Positions 9,001-36,000 of a stretch of 64,000 nucleotides of DNA are shown piece after piece. How positions within the stretch are numbered: position 1 is the stretch's first letter; each line of letters starts with the position of its first letter. Position numbers: made by a program. Source of the stretch: Pecten maximus (Eukaryota). Where the stretch lies: positions 17,794,001-17,858,000 of the forward strand of contig NC_047019.1 in NCBI RefSeq assembly GCF_902652985.1, given 5' to 3'.

Positions 9001-12000
9001 TTACTATGCCATGCGATACAATCTCTCAAATTAGTACCCGGTTTGCTCCATCTACTCTCCATCCATCTTAACATTTGGCTATCTTTTTGTCACTTTGGCG
9101 ACCTCTTGACCTTGTGCGATTTCAATATATACCTGGTCAGACCCATATTTACCACCATCACAATGGTTATCTACAAGTTAGATGGCTATTCTTGAGCAGG
9201 CCGATCCTTTGTTGAACTAAATGACAGTTACTAGCCCAAGTTTCCTCTGACCCGGATACCATGTCCTACACCAGATGGTGTCAGGGCTAGAGGAAACTCG
9301 GGCTAGACAGCTACCTGATATGGGGAAATGACGTTAAGGAAGTCGAGTTAAGAGATTTCGTGTTTATGAGCTCATCTAATCACTATTTACATATACAAAT
9401 GCACCCTTATATTGAAAGGGGCTTCTATTAGATAAGCAAATATTTCCTGCAATTTCTAAATGAAACCTTATTTTTCGATCGAATTGGATGGAATATATGT
9501 ACTGCACATATATTACTACCAAATTCTCTGATAGAAATTGATATAATGATACATAAATCAATTCATCTTATCGCCTTGGTAGACCAATGTTTGATAGCAC
9601 AGGGACTTGGCCCGAGATCCAACACTCCATGGTCCATATATTTATGTATCGCCTTGGTATAATATGGGACATATGGAGTTCGACATCGGACCGAGAAGGA
9701 CCACCTAGCCGCGCCCATGTCCGTCCCAGGGAGATGTCCGGCCCTGTGGACGTACCGGATGGATAGGACAAGACTCGCCTGAGGGGGACACAGGCACCGG
9801 AGGCACTCGACCACCGCCCCCCTCACGTCGCCTGAACACAGCTCACGCCGTGGAAGGAGACGTTAAACCACTAACCAACATAATATGGAGCATGGGATCG
9901 GAATTATTACAATGTCCACTGGTTTGTTACATTAACCTGCAGCTATAATTTTCTAGAATGTATGTTCAAATATTTTTTGTCGCTAATATAGTAACTTACA
10001 ACAAGTGAAGGTGGTTATCGTAGGTAGGAAACTGAACAGTCATATGATTATTAACAATCTTTATTAAGATAACTAAAATTAACAAAAAATATATATAACT
10101 AACGCCTACAGTAAGTAACTTCTACGAACAAAATCAATATAAACCATAAAATCCCATTGTATAAGAGAATGTCATGGTTGTAAATTATTAATTATAGTCT
10201 ACAAGTTATAACGACAATATATGTTAGAACATGTAAATAATAAAATATCTTAAGCAAGTCTACTGCACGTTTTACCCTGAAAGAATCTGAGCTGGGATCC
10301 TGAACATAGTAAACGTAGACGATACCATAGTCAATATTGACCGAAATGTCCCCGTTATGAGATACCATGGTACCACGTCTGGTGATATATCCATTTACAT
10401 TTGATATAGTCATTTCACAGCTTTGTATCACAGCTTTAGGCACGTACACTTGTAAATATATGACACCAAATAATCCATATAAAAACATTAACGCATGCGC
10501 ACAATCACTACTTCCGGTTAATTTTATATCTACTGTTCCTGTTTTCTATCAAGTAAATTCAGGTTCACAGTAACTACAGTGTTAAGAGTACGACCCATCC
10601 ATTTCTAAATCAGCACCGACACTTCGACTTAGGCGTATAACACGAATCTTGGTCTAGATCGTCACAATATTAGAAACACTTTATCCTGACTTCCGGTGAT
10701 TGAAATATCTGCAATTGACATCCATTATCGAGGTCATGTGACACTCACACTTCATCAGTGGGTAGTTCAATGGCTCCTCTTCACCTTTACAAGTCGTTTT
10801 TTTCGATACCTGCTCTTAGCCCGCAATGAGAAGTGTTGTATAGTTCGAGTGGCGCATACCAAAACTACATCCCGACCCCCGGGACTGTCTGTTTGGTTGG
10901 TATGCTGCAGGGCCGGGATTTCGAGACTTGTCCTGTATGCTCCCACACCTAGGTCGAATGCTGTATGCTGGGGGTCTTGGGTTGTAGACTTCAGACTTGA
11001 TGACCCCATATGTCCCTGGGCCCGGGGATTTGCTATTACTTGCTGTCAGTGCTCGTCTGGTGCCTAAACTGTACATAGGAGCTTGTCTCTTACCACTCTG
11101 TACTGTTTTACCAATACCACCCGGCACTTTATAACAATTTGGCGCGGGTGTTCGTCCGGATTTCCTGCTTCGATGGCGACCCCCAAAGCTGAAGGCATTC
11201 CTAGGGTTAGAGTGCGACTTTTCGGTGTTGTACGCCCCTGGGCCAGGGCTGCCATGTTTGGACTTTGAAGGGTGACGCCCACTTATCGAATACTTGGGCG
11301 TACCATCAATCCCTGTCCTATACAGCTTGGAATTGGGAAAGTACTTACTCGGACCAGGACTTCGGTCCTTTTGGTTCCGTCCGACGCGATGACCAAAGGT
11401 ATGGGCAGGCTTCATCACATGAACACTCCGTGGGTCGTGAGATTTCTGCCCCACTAGACCAGGTAATCCGTAAACGGGCCCGGGACCCGAGAAGCTGGCT
11501 GCTATGGGGGCCCGAGGGCGGGTATGACGGTACGCCATATCTTTAAAGGAAGCTCTATATCACCTGTACAGAAGAATCAGTTCATCTCCGCCTCAGAGAT
11601 ACACCTGTGTGGAATTTCCGAGTTAAAAATTTCCCTGGTTGCCGTCCAGTCTCATTAAACTTTCATATAATATGAACACTGTCGAGTCACTAACTCGAGT
11701 ATACGTCCGATTTACATGTGTTTATCACGGAAATGACTCTTACCAACGCTGTAAACACGTCGGGCCTCAATCAAAACAAGAGTTGCTATATAATATAAGT
11801 GTTACGTGAGCTAGTACTAATATCGTGTGTAAATTTATTCGTGTAGACTGCATGTAGTGACTCGAAAACTCTGAACCGGAATCGTTCACATACGACACCA
11901 GTTTTTAAAGGTCCCACCTATGTACATAGGTATTTCTATTCTAAGGTATTGTACAGGTAGACACGGTTCAATACACATGTCCGCGAGCATATGTTTGAAC

Positions 12001-33000: not shown

Positions 33001-36000
33001 TATGATTAAACTGTTTTTGATTTTCAAAGTCTACAATTGTTATGGAAGCACTATTTATAGTGTTTGGACAGCAAACTTGGGTATGAGCGGCAAACCCGAT
33101 ATACCTCCAAACTCGTTATATGCCAAAATCACAGAGAACAGAAGGTGGTGATAAAGTCAGGTTTTACTGTAGTTTAAAATTTCAAGTTCAAAAACTGGTG
33201 TCAAAATTAAAATTTCATGTGTGCATAGCTTAATTTTGTACATAAGTAAACAATATATATGATGGACAATTTTATTGACATTTAGTATTGCCTAATGTTT
33301 TTGTTTTAAAGTCTCAATATTGTTTGATATTGATTTTACTGTCATTAAAAAAAGGAAAAAAATGACTAATACTGCACCATGTCTAATCATCACATCACTG
33401 TTTGATTCCATTAGTCATAGCATAAAAATCATTTTGATGTAAAATTTATTGAATATTATATATTAAATATATATGTATTTAATATTGTATCTATAGGGTC
33501 TAGTAAGTAATAACGGTGGAATAGTCCAATATAGGTATCGGATCCTAACATTCAATATTGTATCTGTATATATATATCATATCATCTAATAGACGACTTC
33601 CACAATGATCATGTCAAAATATTGGGCCGACTGTCACTGCGCCATTGAAACATTCTTTTTAAGAACACTGATGTGGCGCAGCGGTATAAGCTGCAGGTAT
33701 TTCTGGCTAGTCGATTGGGTGACGTAGATCGCGAGTTTGAGGCCAGGTCAGGGCACGAGTCATAAAGTTGTCTTTCTTATTTGTTATATGCATATATATT
33801 ATAGAATCTGTGCTCTAGATCCCATACTATGTTAAGGAATTAAATTTGAAATAGATATTGTATGAATACTCGTTCACAATTTTTTTCTGGTTGTCCTCGG
33901 TCAGTATTTTTTCTCATGTTAATAAAACGATGTATTGACCTTATGAAAAGGCTATAATTGTATCTAAAAATCTAATTCCAGGCCTTAAAGACACTAAGCC
34001 AGAAGCTTGATTTTGCTCACAACAAGAAGTGTGGTTATGTTACCTTCTGTCCCACCAACCTTGGCACCACCTGCAGGGCTAGTGTCCACATCAAGGTCCC
34101 CAAGCTGGCTGCTGCTCCATCTACCGAAGGAAACAAGAGCAAGCTGGAAGACATCTGTGCTAAATTTAATTTGCAACCCAGAGGTGAGGATGTAATAGTG
34201 TCAAATCCTGGCTTGAAGATATGAAATGGTGTTGAAACAAGAGTTAACTGGTTTCTATGGTAACACAGTTCAACCAAACATCAAATACCTTACTGGTTTC
34301 TATGGTAACACAGTTCAACCAAACATCAAATACCATACTGGTTTCTATGGTAACACAGTTCAACCAAACATCTAGTACCTTACTGGTTTCTATGGTAACA
34401 CAGTTCAACCAAACATCTAGTACCTTACTGGTTTCTATGGTAACACAGTTCAACCAAACATCTAGTACCTTACTGGTTTCTATGGTAACACAGTTCAACC
34501 AAACATCTAGTACCTTACTGGTTTCTATGGTAACACAGTTCAACCAAACATCAAATACCTTACTGGTTTCTATGGTAACACAGTTCAACCAAACATCAAA
34601 TACCTTACTGGTTTCTATGGTAACACAGTTCAACCAAACATCAAATACCTTACTGGTTTCTATGGTAACACAGTTCAACCAAACATCTAGTACCTTACTG
34701 GTTTCTATGGTAACACAGTTCAACCAAACATCTAGTACCTTACTGGTTTCTATGGTAACACAGTTCAACCAAACATCTAGTACCTTACTGGTTTCTATGG
34801 TAACACAGTTCAACCAAACATCAAATACCTTACTGGTTTCTATGGTAACACAGTTCAACCAAACATCTAGTACCTTACTGGTTTCTATGGTAACACAGTT
34901 CAACCAAACATCTAGTATCTTACTGGTTTTATGGTAACACAGTTCAACCAAACATTAGTACTGCTGTTTAACATACATCTAATAATTAAATATTGGTTTC
35001 TTTTGTTTTGAAAAGATGGGAAGATTACAGTTAAATACAACATGAACTTTTTTCTGCACAAACACAGAATGATACTGACATTAACAATGTTTTAATTTAT
35101 TTCAGGAATCCACGGTGAGCACACAGAAAGTGTAGGAGGTGTGTATGATATCTCCAACAAGAGGAGACTGGGTCTGAGCGAGCTTGAGGCTATCATGGAA
35201 ATGAAGAACGGAATTGTAGAAGTCATGAAAGCAGAGAAAGCTTTATAGACTGAACTGAATTTTGTAAAAATATTGAAGGACCCAATATGACTATGTTAAA
35301 CAAATGTTATGTGTGACCAAAACTCCTAGAAAATGGTATGATATTGAATATGCTCTTGTCTAGATTGTTCTGCTGGAAAAGGGATGCTGCTGTCGATATA
35401 TTTGTGTGTTACATTAACATCAGCGGTTAGAACACCTGGGATCATATTGCCTCAAGAATTTGCCTCCGATGCCGAAAATGTTCTGTTACAATCTAGATCT
35501 GTGCGCTGAATTGATACCTGCATGTTAAGACCAGTTGTGGGATCCAGGATATGGTGCAGCAGTCTAGAAAAGGTGGAAATGATTCAATATTGTCACCATT
35601 TTCCTATTCCTTTGTATATATATTTATAAACTGTTATCCTCTAGTGTGAAATCCTTATGTGGGGTCTGCTAGATCACTTTCTGGAGATCCGATTGCTGGC
35701 TTACACCCTTTCATACTCACATCCTTCCATCCAATCAGTGGAAAGCCAGCCAGATGCATACATCTGATTGGTTGGTGGCCATCAAAGGCAACAAATCTAA
35801 TTGGTTGGTGGCCATGGGATGCTGATATCTGATTGGTTGATAGCCATCGGATGCACCTTGTTGTATAATGTATTTGCATAGTAATTAAAAAGCTGTGTGC
35901 CAAAATAAGCTGTGAGTAATAAATACAAAACGCATGTAGTCATTCCTGGAAATGAGACGTTAAAAAAAACAGACATTTTACAACTTATCTTCTTTTTTGC

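What the first reader, a model, noticed from the sequence alone, without database searches (positions are those of the whole stretch)
10816..35248. Candidate flagellar structure-plus-energy gene cluster: two CIMAP1/ODF3 paralogues head-to-head with an arginine kinase, all with RFX-type sites
Seen: ODF3-a and ODF3-b (minus strand) and AK (plus strand) are adjacent, and ODF3-b and AK diverge across 5.6 kb. There is a perfect X-box at 12222-12235, an X-box-like palindrome at 19348, an RFX-like half site at 24536 and the intronic X-box array. Established: SHIPPO/PGPG-repeat proteins decorate axonemal doublets, and phosphagen kinases shuttle energy along flagella and cilia. Inference: this AK is a ciliary or sperm isoform co-regulated with the axonemal genes rather than the muscle isoform.
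Basis: partly seen in the sequence, partly recalled or inferred. Interest (0 to 1): 0.65.

Follow-up and report, generated by a model that had tools for sequence, protein, structure and literature searches.

The report
Two ODF3 genes beside arginine kinase
Two sperm-tail/cilium microtubule-protein genes sit next to an ordinary-looking arginine kinase gene whose last intron holds a short repeat carrying 15 copies of a cilia-regulator binding motif, but nothing in the sequence shows that the three genes are switched on together.

Summary
The genes are real. Two intact, intron-free CIMAP1/ODF3 genes lie in tandem on the minus strand (10816-11538 and 18360-19112). A complete six-exon, single-domain arginine kinase (AK) lies on the plus strand (24704-35248). 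ODF3-b and AK start codons are 5,591 bp apart.

The RFX evidence mostly fails:
- 12222-12235 matches only the loose nematode X-box consensus and lies 684 bp upstream of the ODF3-a ATG.
- 19348 is a 2-mismatch match, which is chance level.
- 24536 is a bare half-site (34 in the window, 35.7 expected).
- Outside one repeat array, X-box-like motifs occur at chance level (19 observed, 18.7 expected).

The exception is a 45-bp minisatellite in AK intron 5 (34247-34961). It carries 15 identical good X-boxes. Only 20 of 5,000 equal-information control motifs were amplified in this way.

Several features lean against co-regulation:
- The ODF3-b/AK spacer is 43% satellite.
- AK has its own CCAAT and TATA promoter and no X-box near it.
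- AK has no flagellar-targeting extension.
- The AK gene body is CpG-depleted (0.57), while the ODF3 side is not (0.93). That suggests different expression classes.

Expression, phylogeny and synteny could not be tested. My reading is incidental adjacency, with a minority chance that the array is an RFX-responsive enhancer.

The parts
10816..11538 (-). ODF3-a: intact single-exon CIMAP1/ODF3-family CDS, 240 aa. It is the more divergent paralogue.
   Evidence: ORF. Pfam SHIPPO-rpt E 5.2e-17. Best solved-structure relative is 8otz_At, CIMAP1B, E 1.7e-32, aligned over residues 3-235. 44% identical to ODF3-b over the full length.
18360..19112 (-). ODF3-b: intact single-exon CIMAP1/ODF3-family CDS, 250 aa. 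It is the conserved paralogue.
   Evidence: ORF. Pfam SHIPPO-rpt E 8.6e-19, 3 stretches. Best solved-structure relative is 8snb_1a, 'Outer dense fiber protein 3', E 1.3e-70, residues 3-249 against 6-249 of 251.
24704..24878 (+). AK exon 1 (ATG at 24704; donor GT at 24879).
   Evidence: Pfam ATP-gua_PtransN positions 2-37. Sequence read. All 22 of 22 PDB hits are arginine kinases; query residues 16-58 align to chain residues 14-56.
28085..28344 (+). AK exon 2: end of the N-terminal domain, with the arginine-specificity loop [10 protein letters not shown].
   Evidence: Pfam N-domain positions 37-66. Sequence. PDB: AK-lineage chains score E 1e-22 to 1e-37 and creatine kinases 2e-07 or weaker; the loop aligns to AK 4rf6.
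31184..31332 (+). AK exon 3.
   Evidence: Pfam ATP-gua_Ptrans positions 1-44. Sequence. Aligns to AK residues 144-192.
31644..31809 (+). AK exon 4 (contains NEEDH).
   Evidence: Pfam C-domain positions 40-100. Sequence. Aligns to AK residues 194-247.
33982..34183 (+). AK exon 5 (contains the reactive-cysteine motif CPTNLGT).
   Evidence: Pfam C-domain positions 93-157. Sequence. Aligns to AK residues 251-309.
35106..35248 (+). AK exon 6, ending in TAG at 35246-35248.
   Evidence: Pfam C-domain positions 156-202. Sequence. Aligns to AK residues 312-355.
24552..24600 (+). Presumed AK core promoter: CCAAT at 24552-24556 and TATAAAA at 24594-24600.
   Evidence: Sequence; motif scan. The promoter role is an inference, because no transcript data are available.
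34247..34961 (.). 45-bp minisatellite in AK intron 5. It has 15 full units plus a degenerate 16th, and each full unit carries the X-box-type 14-mer GTTTCTATGGTAAC.
   Evidence: TRF: period 45, 15.9 copies, 97% matches. The motif matches on both strands in 15 units and is 1 mismatch from the strict consensus. Only 4 of 45 columns vary, and no unit-like copy occurs elsewhere in the window. No flanking inverted repeats.
12222..12235 (-). X-box-like site 684 bp upstream of the ODF3-a ATG (GTCTCTATGACAAC).
   Evidence: Exact match to the loose consensus. Not within 1 mismatch of the strict consensus.
12965..12978 (-). Second loose, AT-rich X-box match, 1,427 bp upstream of the ODF3-a ATG (GTATTTATAGTAAC).
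19348..19361 (+). It is at chance level.
   Evidence: Absent at <=1 mismatch of the loose pattern. It is a 2-mismatch match of the strict pattern, a class found 46 times outside arrays against 59.3 expected.
24536..24541 (+). It is at chance level.
   Evidence: 34 such half-sites in the window against 35.7 +/- 6.6 expected.
13071..17308 (.). 40-bp satellite arrays (13071-14060 and 14392-17308) that fill most of the ODF3-a/ODF3-b spacer.
20298..23532 (.). Arrays in the ODF3-b/AK spacer: 63 bp x 27 (20298-22019), 15/30-bp repeat (22390-22833) and 59 bp x 4 (23296-23532). Together they cover 2,403 of the 5,591 bp.

Best explanation
The region holds a tandem pair of intact, intron-free CIMAP1/ODF3 genes, which encode microtubule-associated proteins of sperm and cilium doublets. 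Next to them lies a canonical single-domain cytosolic arginine kinase gene. Each gene most likely has its own promoter, and the adjacency is most likely incidental.

Shown here:
- the gene identities;
- that all three genes are intact;
- the AK exon structure;
- that the X-box array exists.

Inferred here:
- AK is transcribed from its own CCAAT/TATA promoter about 80-110 bp upstream of ATG 24704.
- AK makes an unextended, soluble enzyme that buffers ATP through phosphoarginine.
- AK belongs to the germline-methylated class of genes that vary little between tissues.
- The ODF3 genes belong to the unmethylated, tissue-restricted class expected of sperm and cilium genes.
- The 45-bp array is a young minisatellite whose unit happens to contain a good RFX-type 14-mer.
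For: - Gene identities.
- The six AK exons, each searched separately, are colinear with residues 14-355 of 356/357-aa AKs. There is no N-terminal extension from ATG 24704, and a second phosphagen-kinase domain is not found up to 37029.
- Promoter: CCAAT at 24552 and TATAAAA at 24594. No X-box within 1 mismatch lies between 22897 and the array.
- The ODF3-b/AK spacer is 5,591 bp, of which 2,403 bp are tandem arrays. It is not a compact bidirectional promoter.
- Outside the array, X-box-like motifs are at chance level: 19 against 18.7, 2 against 4.75, 46 against 59.3, and half-sites 34 against 35.7.
- CpG o/e with arrays masked: AK body 137 observed against 242 expected (0.57), AK exons 0.41, AK introns 0.60. 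The left flank with both ODF3 genes is 0.93, the ODF3-a CDS 0.74 and the ODF3-b CDS 0.86. The depletion starts about 1.3 kb into the AK gene.
- In the oyster C. gigas, CpG o/e predicts methylation, and methylated genes vary least between tissues (PMC3840415, passages read).
- The array units are near-identical, with 4 of 45 columns variable, so the array is young or homogenised.
- The neighbours are not ciliary: a coronin-type exon at 301-498, a UCH exon at 48676-49068 and a HEPN_DZIP3 ORF at 54896-55723.
Against: - The array is unusual for one window. Only 20 of 5,000 equal-information control motifs reached >=5 hits inside one array, and it sits inside the AK gene next to two axonemal genes.
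- Three exact loose X-box matches lie outside arrays, against 0.5-0.8 expected. Only 1.7% of controls reach 3. Two of the three lie within 1.5 kb upstream of ODF3-a.
- RFX factors also bind away from promoters: fewer than a third of ChIP peaks are in promoters (PMC7498320, passages).
- Three tandem copies of an X-box variant sufficed to drive expression in ciliated neurons of C. elegans (bioRxiv 10.1101/2021.02.03.429678, passages).
- An 'arginine kinase-like' gene rises in the maturing male gonad of abalone (bioRxiv 10.1101/2025.08.18.670794, passages).
- The CpG argument assumes that this genome behaves like the oyster's. Coding-sequence values are also affected by amino-acid composition.
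Confidence: 0.55

Rival explanations
1. The AK is a cilium/sperm paralogue that RFX switches on together with the ODF3 genes. The 15 X-boxes of the intron-5 minisatellite would act as a multimerised RFX-responsive enhancer for AK, and possibly for the ODF3 genes 15-23 kb away. The site at 12222 would serve ODF3-a.
For: - Fifteen identical good X-boxes at 45-bp spacing, a rarity for control motifs at 0.4%.
- Loose X-boxes at 12222 and 12965 upstream of ODF3-a.
- RFX binds many non-promoter sites.
- Tandem X-boxes can drive expression in ciliated cells.
- Phosphoarginine/AK systems serve cilia and flagella in ciliates and trypanosomes (review PMC11492440, passages).
- A gonad-upregulated AK-like gene exists in abalone.
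Against: - No X-box lies near the AK promoter or near ODF3-b.
- RFX2 sites in spermatogenic target genes lie very close to the TSS (PMC4498915, passages), whereas the array is 9.5 kb downstream of the ATG.
- The AK body and the ODF3 genes fall into different CpG-depletion classes.
- The AK carries no known flagellar-targeting feature.
- The array is too uniform to test for constraint.
- The window was picked after the fact. At 0.4% per 64-kb window, a genome of the order of a gigabase would hold dozens of such arrays by chance (my estimate).
- No paper in the library holds 'arginine kinase', 'cilia' and 'RFX' together (0 papers).
Confidence: 0.15
2. The AK is the high-output muscle isoform, driven by a TATA promoter with muscle-type elements. 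It has nothing to do with its neighbours.
For: - TATA and CCAAT promoter.
- One palindromic CArG box, CCATATATGG, at 23277, 1.4 kb upstream. Only 2 such sites occur in the window.
- Scallop AK is the sixth most abundant transcript in striated adductor muscle (PMC5700196, passage).
Against: - No MEF2-type site within 2 kb upstream (0 there, against 54 in the window).
- A strictly tissue-specific gene would be expected to keep a high CpG o/e in a bivalve, but the AK body is at 0.57.
- The introns are long (3.2, 2.8 and 2.2 kb).
- A scallop has four AK genes (review passage), so this need not be the muscle one.
Confidence: 0.2
3. Mixed case. The ODF3 genes, at least ODF3-a, are ordinary RFX targets like many axonemal genes, but AK is not, and the array has no function.
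For: - Two of the three exact loose X-box matches outside arrays lie within 1.5 kb upstream of ODF3-a.
- A possible splice acceptor about 25 nt before the ODF3-a ATG would place the transcription start further upstream, nearer 12222.
Against: - The 12222 site fails the strict consensus, and 12965 is AT-rich.
- ODF3-b, the conserved copy, has nothing better than a chance-level site.
Confidence: 0.1

Closest known systems
CIMAP1/ODF3 family (SHIPPO / PG-rich repeat proteins); solved chains 8snb_1a and 8snb_5A 'Outer dense fiber protein 3', 8otz and 8iyj CIMAP1A/1B/1C
   Same: Both ORFs have the same length as family members (240 and 250 aa against 251-303 aa). Both have SHIPPO repeats and align end to end with the solved chains: ODF3-b at E 1e-70 and ODF3-a at E 2e-32. 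The sea-urchin entry also holds two distinct ODF3 chains.
   Different: Both CDSs here are uninterrupted single exons. I recall that the mammalian genes are multi-exon; this was not checked. ODF3-a is divergent: 44% identical to ODF3-b, and about half the bit score against every solved relative. That these PDB entries are sperm doublet microtubules is recalled; the tool gives molecule names only.
Canonical 40-kDa arginine kinases (for example 1m15/1bg0, 4am1, 5zhq) and the AK-lineage two-domain enzymes 4rf6 (AK) and 4wo8 (taurocyamine kinase)
   Same: N- and C-terminal phosphagen-kinase domains are present. The exons are colinear with residues 14-355. The [10 protein letters not shown] loop, NEEDH and CPTNLGT are present.
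   Different: The summed exons give 364 aa. A 6-7-residue insertion in exon 5 shows up relative to the aligned chains. No mollusc AK structure appeared among the hits, so a closer comparison was not possible.
Flagellar/ciliary phosphagen kinases (T. brucei flagellar AK with an N-terminal targeting insertion; ciliate ciliary AKs)
   Same: The same enzyme family. The idea of a phosphagen shuttle for axonemes is established for these organisms (PMC11492440 passages; PMC4517888 abstract in the listing).
   Different: No N-terminal insertion when translation starts at ATG 24704, and residue 2 is Ser, not Gly. An in-frame ATG at 24620 would add 28 residues, but it lies only about 20 nt after the TATA box and the added stretch has no Gly2 or Cys.
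RFX/X-box regulon of ciliary genes
   Same: The 14-mer of the array fits GTHNYY AT RRNAAC exactly (consensus seen in print: bioRxiv 10.1101/2020.08.21.260547, passage). It is 1 mismatch from GTNRCCNNRGYAAC, a consensus I recalled.
   Different: Known functional X-boxes mostly lie close to the TSS or ATG. Here the good sites are in the last intron, inside a minisatellite, and the promoters lack them.

Membership tests
CIMAP1/ODF3 (SHIPPO-repeat) proteins | PG-rich SHIPPO repeats (Pfam PF07004) above the curated cut-off | tested here: met
   62.1 and 67.6 bits against a cut-off of 20.
CIMAP1/ODF3 (SHIPPO-repeat) proteins | Full-length collinearity with ODF3/CIMAP1 proteins of about 250 aa | tested here: met
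   ODF3-b residues 3-249 against 6-249 of the 251-aa chain 8snb_1a, E 1.3e-70. ODF3-a residues 3-238 against 6-246 of the same chain, E 4.8e-31.
CIMAP1/ODF3 (SHIPPO-repeat) proteins | Location on axonemal doublet microtubules | not testable with these tools
   This needs proteomics or imaging of this species' sperm or cilia.
Arginine kinase (phosphagen kinase family) | ATP-gua_PtransN plus ATP-gua_Ptrans domains, complete | tested here: met
   Six exon pieces cover N-domain positions 2-66 and C-domain positions 1-202. The exons were scanned separately; the joined model was not built.
Arginine kinase (phosphagen kinase family) | AK-type guanidino-specificity loop and closer to AKs than to creatine, glycocyamine or lombricine kinases | tested here: met
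   Exon 2 scores E 1e-22 against AKs and 2e-07 or weaker against CKs, and [10 protein letters not shown] aligns with 4rf6. All 22 of 22 exon-1 hits are AKs. Exon 3 alone does not separate AK from CK.
Arginine kinase (phosphagen kinase family) | Catalytic activity on arginine | not testable with these tools
   This needs an enzyme assay.
RFX/X-box-regulated ciliary gene | X-box within a few hundred bp of the TSS or ATG | tested here: not met
   For AK, nothing within 1 mismatch lies between 22897 and the intron-5 array. For ODF3-b there is only a 2-mismatch, chance-level site. ODF3-a is inconclusive: a loose match at -684 bp.
RFX/X-box-regulated ciliary gene | X-box conserved in orthologous loci; RFX occupancy or RFX dependence | not testable with these tools
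   No eukaryote genome collection or expression data are available.
Divergent gene pair with a shared bidirectional promoter | Short spacer (usually under 1 kb; recalled) between divergent starts | tested here: not met
   5,591 bp between the ATGs, of which 2,403 bp are tandem arrays.
Flagellum-targeted phosphagen kinase | N-terminal targeting extension or lipidation signal, or a multi-domain flagellar form | tested here: not met
   Query residue 16 aligns with AK residue 14. Residue 2 is Ser. There is one domain pair only. An unknown targeting mode cannot be excluded.

The most novel reading that the evidence does not exclude
A young 45-bp minisatellite in the last intron of an otherwise general arginine kinase gene has multiplied a good RFX site 15-fold. 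It may thereby have created a repeat-born, RFX-responsive enhancer. Such an enhancer would connect the phosphoarginine ATP buffer, and perhaps the neighbouring ODF3 genes, to the motile-cilium and sperm programme. That would be a case of regulatory capture by tandem-repeat expansion.
Probability: 0.12. Interest if true: 0.6.

Novelty: new member of a known kind. Interest (0 to 1): 0.3.

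Why it matters
If the three genes were really co-regulated, this would be a rare animal example of a structural gene and an energy-supply gene for the axoneme being linked. It would also show a minisatellite acting as a multimerised RFX enhancer.

As the evidence stands, the locus is a normal tandem pair of axonemal genes next to a normal AK gene. The practical lesson is that loose X-box and half-site matches occur at chance level in this AT-rich, repeat-rich genome. 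Only the array deserves a look in expression or chromatin data.

Tried and rejected
- X-box claims were tested with three patterns and sequence shuffles and with 5,000 column-shuffled control motifs. Sites 19348 and 24536 were rejected.
- I looked for transposon ends around the array. No inverted repeats were found, and no unit-like copy occurs elsewhere in the window.
- I looked for muscle-type and cilium-type promoter motifs. There is no MEF2-type site, one CArG box at -1.4 kb, and no forkhead core near AK. This is too weak to use either way.
- I looked for retrogene marks at the intron-free ODF3 genes by reading the 3' flanks. No poly(A) remnant was seen, and the retrogene idea remains untested.
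- I looked for further ciliary genes in the window. 150 of 266 stop-free pieces of >=45 aa outside the finding were scanned, plus 10 long ORFs. Only coronin-type, UCH and HEPN_DZIP3 matches came up. The other 116 pieces (47500-64000) were not scanned.
  - 'arginine kinase' + 'cilia' + 'RFX': 0 papers.
  - 'arginine kinase' + 'outer dense fiber' + 'sperm': 1 paper, on a mosquito, with no linkage claim.
  - 'Odf3' does not occur in the main text of the two RFX2 knockout papers listed. Their supplementary target tables are closed and could bear on this.
- Not used because unsuitable: genome contigs (bacteria and archaea only), search_dna_similar (phages, plasmids, E. coli), structure prediction (the sequence matches to solved structures were already decisive), and the protein atlas.
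As a result there is no AK paralogue phylogeny, no mollusc microsynteny, and no check whether the 45-bp unit is a genome-wide repeat family.

Full report
**What is there.**
The window is AT-rich (GC about 0.30-0.45) and 21% of it is tandem arrays. It has one N run at 60223-60420, which I left alone. Nothing in the window was taken for human. The finding's interval contains three genes.

**The two ODF3 genes.**
ODF3-a (10816-11538, minus strand, 240 aa) and ODF3-b (18360-19112, minus strand, 250 aa) are uninterrupted ORFs.
- Both pass Pfam SHIPPO-rpt, 'Sperm-tail PG-rich repeat', at 62 and 68 bits against a cut-off of 20.
- Against the sequences of solved structures, ODF3-b aligns over residues 3-249 with the 251-aa 'Outer dense fiber protein 3' chain 8snb_1a (E 1.3e-70). 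It then matches CIMAP1A, CIMAP1B and CIMAP1C of 8iyj and 8otz.
- ODF3-a matches the same six chains at about half the score, with CIMAP1B best at E 1.7e-32.
- The two proteins are 44% identical over their full length.

So they are an old or fast-diverging tandem pair. ODF3-b is the conserved copy. That these PDB entries are sperm doublet microtubules is my recollection; the tool gives molecule names only.

Both CDSs lack introns. A possible splice acceptor about 25 nt before the ODF3-a ATG hints at a 5'-UTR intron. I saw no poly(A) remnant in either 3' flank.

**The AK gene.**
I scanned 150 of the 153 stop-free plus-strand pieces of >=25 aa found in the 24000-37000 scan. The three pieces starting before 24040 were dropped. 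Six pieces matched the phosphagen-kinase N- and C-terminal domains.

Reading the sequence gives six exons with GT..AG borders:

| Exon | Coordinates |
|---|---|
| 1 | 24704-24878 |
| 2 | 28085-28344 |
| 3 | 31184-31332 |
| 4 | 31644-31809 |
| 5 | 33982-34183 |
| 6 | 35106-35248 |

The exons sum to 1,095 nt, or 364 codons plus the stop. The introns are 3206, 2839, 311, 2172 and 922 nt long.

The joined protein was never built or searched, so there is no whole-protein score.

The six exons map colinearly to residues 14-56, 60-141, 144-192, 194-247, 251-309 and 312-355 of 356/357-aa arginine kinases.
- Exon 2 carries the [10 protein letters not shown] loop. It scores E about 1e-22 against AKs and 2e-07 or weaker against creatine kinases.
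- Exon 4 has NEEDH and exon 5 has CPTNLGT.
- Exon 3 alone does not separate AK from CK.
- None of the chains matched is from an axoneme entry.
- There is one domain pair only. From ATG 24704 there is no N-terminal extension, and residue 2 is Ser.
- An in-frame ATG at 24620 would add 28 residues, but it lies about 20 nt after the TATAAAA at 24594-24600.

**Arrangement.**
However, 2,403 bp of that spacer are arrays at 20298-22019, 22390-22833 and 23296-23532.

The ODF3-a/ODF3-b spacer is 6,821 bp, of which 4,012 bp are arrays.

AK has its own CCAAT (24552) and TATA (24594) just upstream of the ATG.

The flanking genes show no ciliary character:
- a coronin-type N-terminal exon (DUF1899, 21.4 bits against a cut-off of 20.7) at 301-498, minus strand;
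- a ubiquitin-hydrolase last exon at 48676-49068;
- a HEPN_DZIP3 ORF at 54896-55723.

**The RFX claims.**
I used two consensus patterns. The loose one, GTHNYY AT RRNAAC, I saw in print (bioRxiv 10.1101/2020.08.21.260547, passage). The stricter one, GTNRCCNNRGYAAC, is recalled.

Exact loose matches give 33 strand-matches. Thirty come from 15 units of one array, and three lie elsewhere (12222, 12965, 61122). Sequence shuffles give 0.79 +/- 1.0.

| Pattern and mismatches | All matches | In arrays | Outside arrays | Expected from shuffles, whole window |
|---|---|---|---|---|
| Loose, <=1 | 51 | 32 | 19 | 18.7 +/- 5.5 |
| Strict, <=1 | 17 | 15 | 2 | 4.75 |
| Strict, <=2 | 91 | 30, plus 15 in the unrelated 26-bp array | 46 | 59.3 |

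The four claimed sites fare as follows:
- 12222 is a match of the loose pattern only. It lies 684 bp from the ODF3-a ATG.
- 19348 is one of the chance-level 2-mismatch sites.
- 24536 is a lone half-site (34 in the window, 35.7 expected).
- The intronic array is real.

Outside the array there is therefore no enrichment. The one caveat is that two of the three exact loose matches lie within 1.5 kb upstream of ODF3-a. Only 1.7% of 5,000 control motifs reach 3 or more non-array hits.

**The array.**
It spans 34247-34961 and fills 715 of the 922 nt of AK intron 5. The period is 45 bp, with 15 full units and a degenerate 16th.

Each full unit carries GTTTCTATGGTAAC. This fits the loose consensus on both strands and is 1 mismatch from the strict consensus.

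Only 4 of 45 columns vary, and none of them is in the motif. With so little variation, no test for constraint is possible. There are no flanking inverted repeats and no other copy of the unit in the window.

As a control I shuffled the columns of the consensus 5,000 times. Only 20 patterns (0.4%) gave >=5 hits inside any one of the window's arrays. So the feature is unusual for one window. At that rate, though, dozens would be expected by chance in a genome of the order of a gigabase, and this window was chosen after the fact. Both of these points are my inference.

**Could the array work?**
It is plausible in principle:
- Fewer than a third of RFX1-3 ChIP peaks are in promoters (PMC7498320, passages).
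- Three tandem copies of an X-box variant were enough to drive GFP in ciliated neurons of C. elegans (bioRxiv 10.1101/2021.02.03.429678, passages).

Against it, RFX2 sites of spermatogenic target genes lie very close to the TSS (PMC4498915, passages). C. elegans X-boxes are also sought within 500-2000 bp of the ATG (PMC3245922, passages).

**An independent proxy: CpG depletion.**
With arrays masked, CpG observed/expected values are as follows:

| Region | CpG o/e |
|---|---|
| AK body | 0.57 (137 observed, 242 expected) |
| AK exons | 0.41 |
| AK introns | 0.60 |
| Left of AK, including both ODF3 genes | 0.93 |
| Right of AK | 0.79 |
| ODF3-a CDS | 0.74 |
| ODF3-b CDS | 0.86 |
| 1 kb upstream of each of the three genes | 0.93-1.09 |

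The depletion begins about 1.3 kb into the AK gene. One 2-kb stretch, 32001-34000 in intron 4, is not depleted (0.83).

In the oyster C. gigas, CpG o/e predicts gene methylation (rho -0.62), and methylated genes are those that vary least between tissues (PMC3840415, passages).

If this genome behaves alike, AK belongs to the methylated, broadly expressed class and the ODF3 genes to the unmethylated, tissue-restricted class. That argues against a shared on/off programme. It also argues mildly against a strictly muscle-only AK. It is an inference, not a measurement.

**Literature context.**
What I saw of each paper is given in brackets.
- AK/phosphoarginine serves cilia and flagella in ciliates and trypanosomes, and a scallop has four AK genes (review PMC11492440, passages).
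- The T. brucei flagellar AK owes its targeting to an N-terminal insertion (PMC4517888, abstract in the search listing).
- Scallop AK is the sixth most abundant transcript in striated adductor muscle (PMC5700196, passage).
- An AK-like gene rises in the maturing male gonad of abalone (bioRxiv 10.1101/2025.08.18.670794, passages).
- AK spots occur in the mussel gill proteome (PMC5302490, passages).
- No paper in the library holds 'arginine kinase', 'cilia' and 'RFX' together.
- The only paper holding 'arginine kinase', 'outer dense fiber' and 'sperm' together concerns a mosquito and makes no linkage claim.

**Verdict.**
The genes, their orientation, the spacing and the array are real. The sites at 19348 and 24536 are noise, and 12222 is weak.

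The interpretation cannot be decided here. The sequence proxies lean towards three independently regulated genes: an ordinary tandem pair of axonemal CIMAP1/ODF3 genes and a canonical soluble AK. The X-box minisatellite is most likely a coincidence. I give about one chance in eight that it is a repeat-born RFX enhancer.

**What stayed unchecked.**
- Expression.
- AK paralogue phylogeny.
- Mollusc synteny.
- Genome-wide distribution of the 45-bp unit.

The supplementary RFX target tables were also closed. In addition, 116 of 266 stop-free pieces of >=45 aa outside the finding (47500-64000) were not scanned against Pfam.

Noticed in passing
window 24620-24703: An in-frame ATG 84 nt upstream of the AK start would add 28 residues. 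The frame is open back to a stop inside the TATA box. Whether it is ever transcribed depends on the TSS.
   Followed up: partly
window 26000-36000: The AK gene body forms a CpG-depleted domain (o/e 0.27-0.48 in 2-kb bins) with a non-depleted island at 32001-34000 in intron 4. Bins 52001-54000 (0.54) and 62001-64000 (0.26) are also depleted, which suggests other methylated gene bodies there.
   Followed up: partly
window 301-498 (-): A stop-free piece matches DUF1899, which I recall as the coronin N-terminal domain, at E 2e-4 and 21.4 bits against a cut-off of 20.7. This is probably the first coding exon of a coronin-type gene that runs off the left end of the window.
   Followed up: no
window 48676-49068 (+): An ORF matches the C-terminal end of the ubiquitin carboxyl-terminal hydrolase domain (UCH, E 8e-12). 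It is likely the last exon of a USP gene downstream of AK.
   Followed up: no
window 54896-55723 (+): A 275-aa ORF carries a DZIP3/hRUL138-like HEPN domain (E 3.6e-26).
   Followed up: no
window 37373-38816 and 38959-39452: Two AT-rich 21-bp arrays whose consensus units look like reverse complements of each other. That would make an inverted pair of satellites just downstream of AK.
   Followed up: no
window 6870-8814 and 20298-22019: Two large, strongly G-skewed arrays: 26 bp x 75 and 63 bp x 27, with GC skew up to 0.43. They give long artefactual ORFs of up to 613 aa on the minus strand.
   Followed up: no
window 23277-23286: A palindromic CArG-type box, CCATATATGG, lies 1.4 kb upstream of the AK ATG. 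It is one of only two such sites in the window.
   Followed up: partly
window 2569-3243 (-): A 224-aa ORF with no Pfam match. Its nature is unknown.
   Followed up: partly
window 60223-60420: A run of 198 N. It was left as it is.
   Followed up: no
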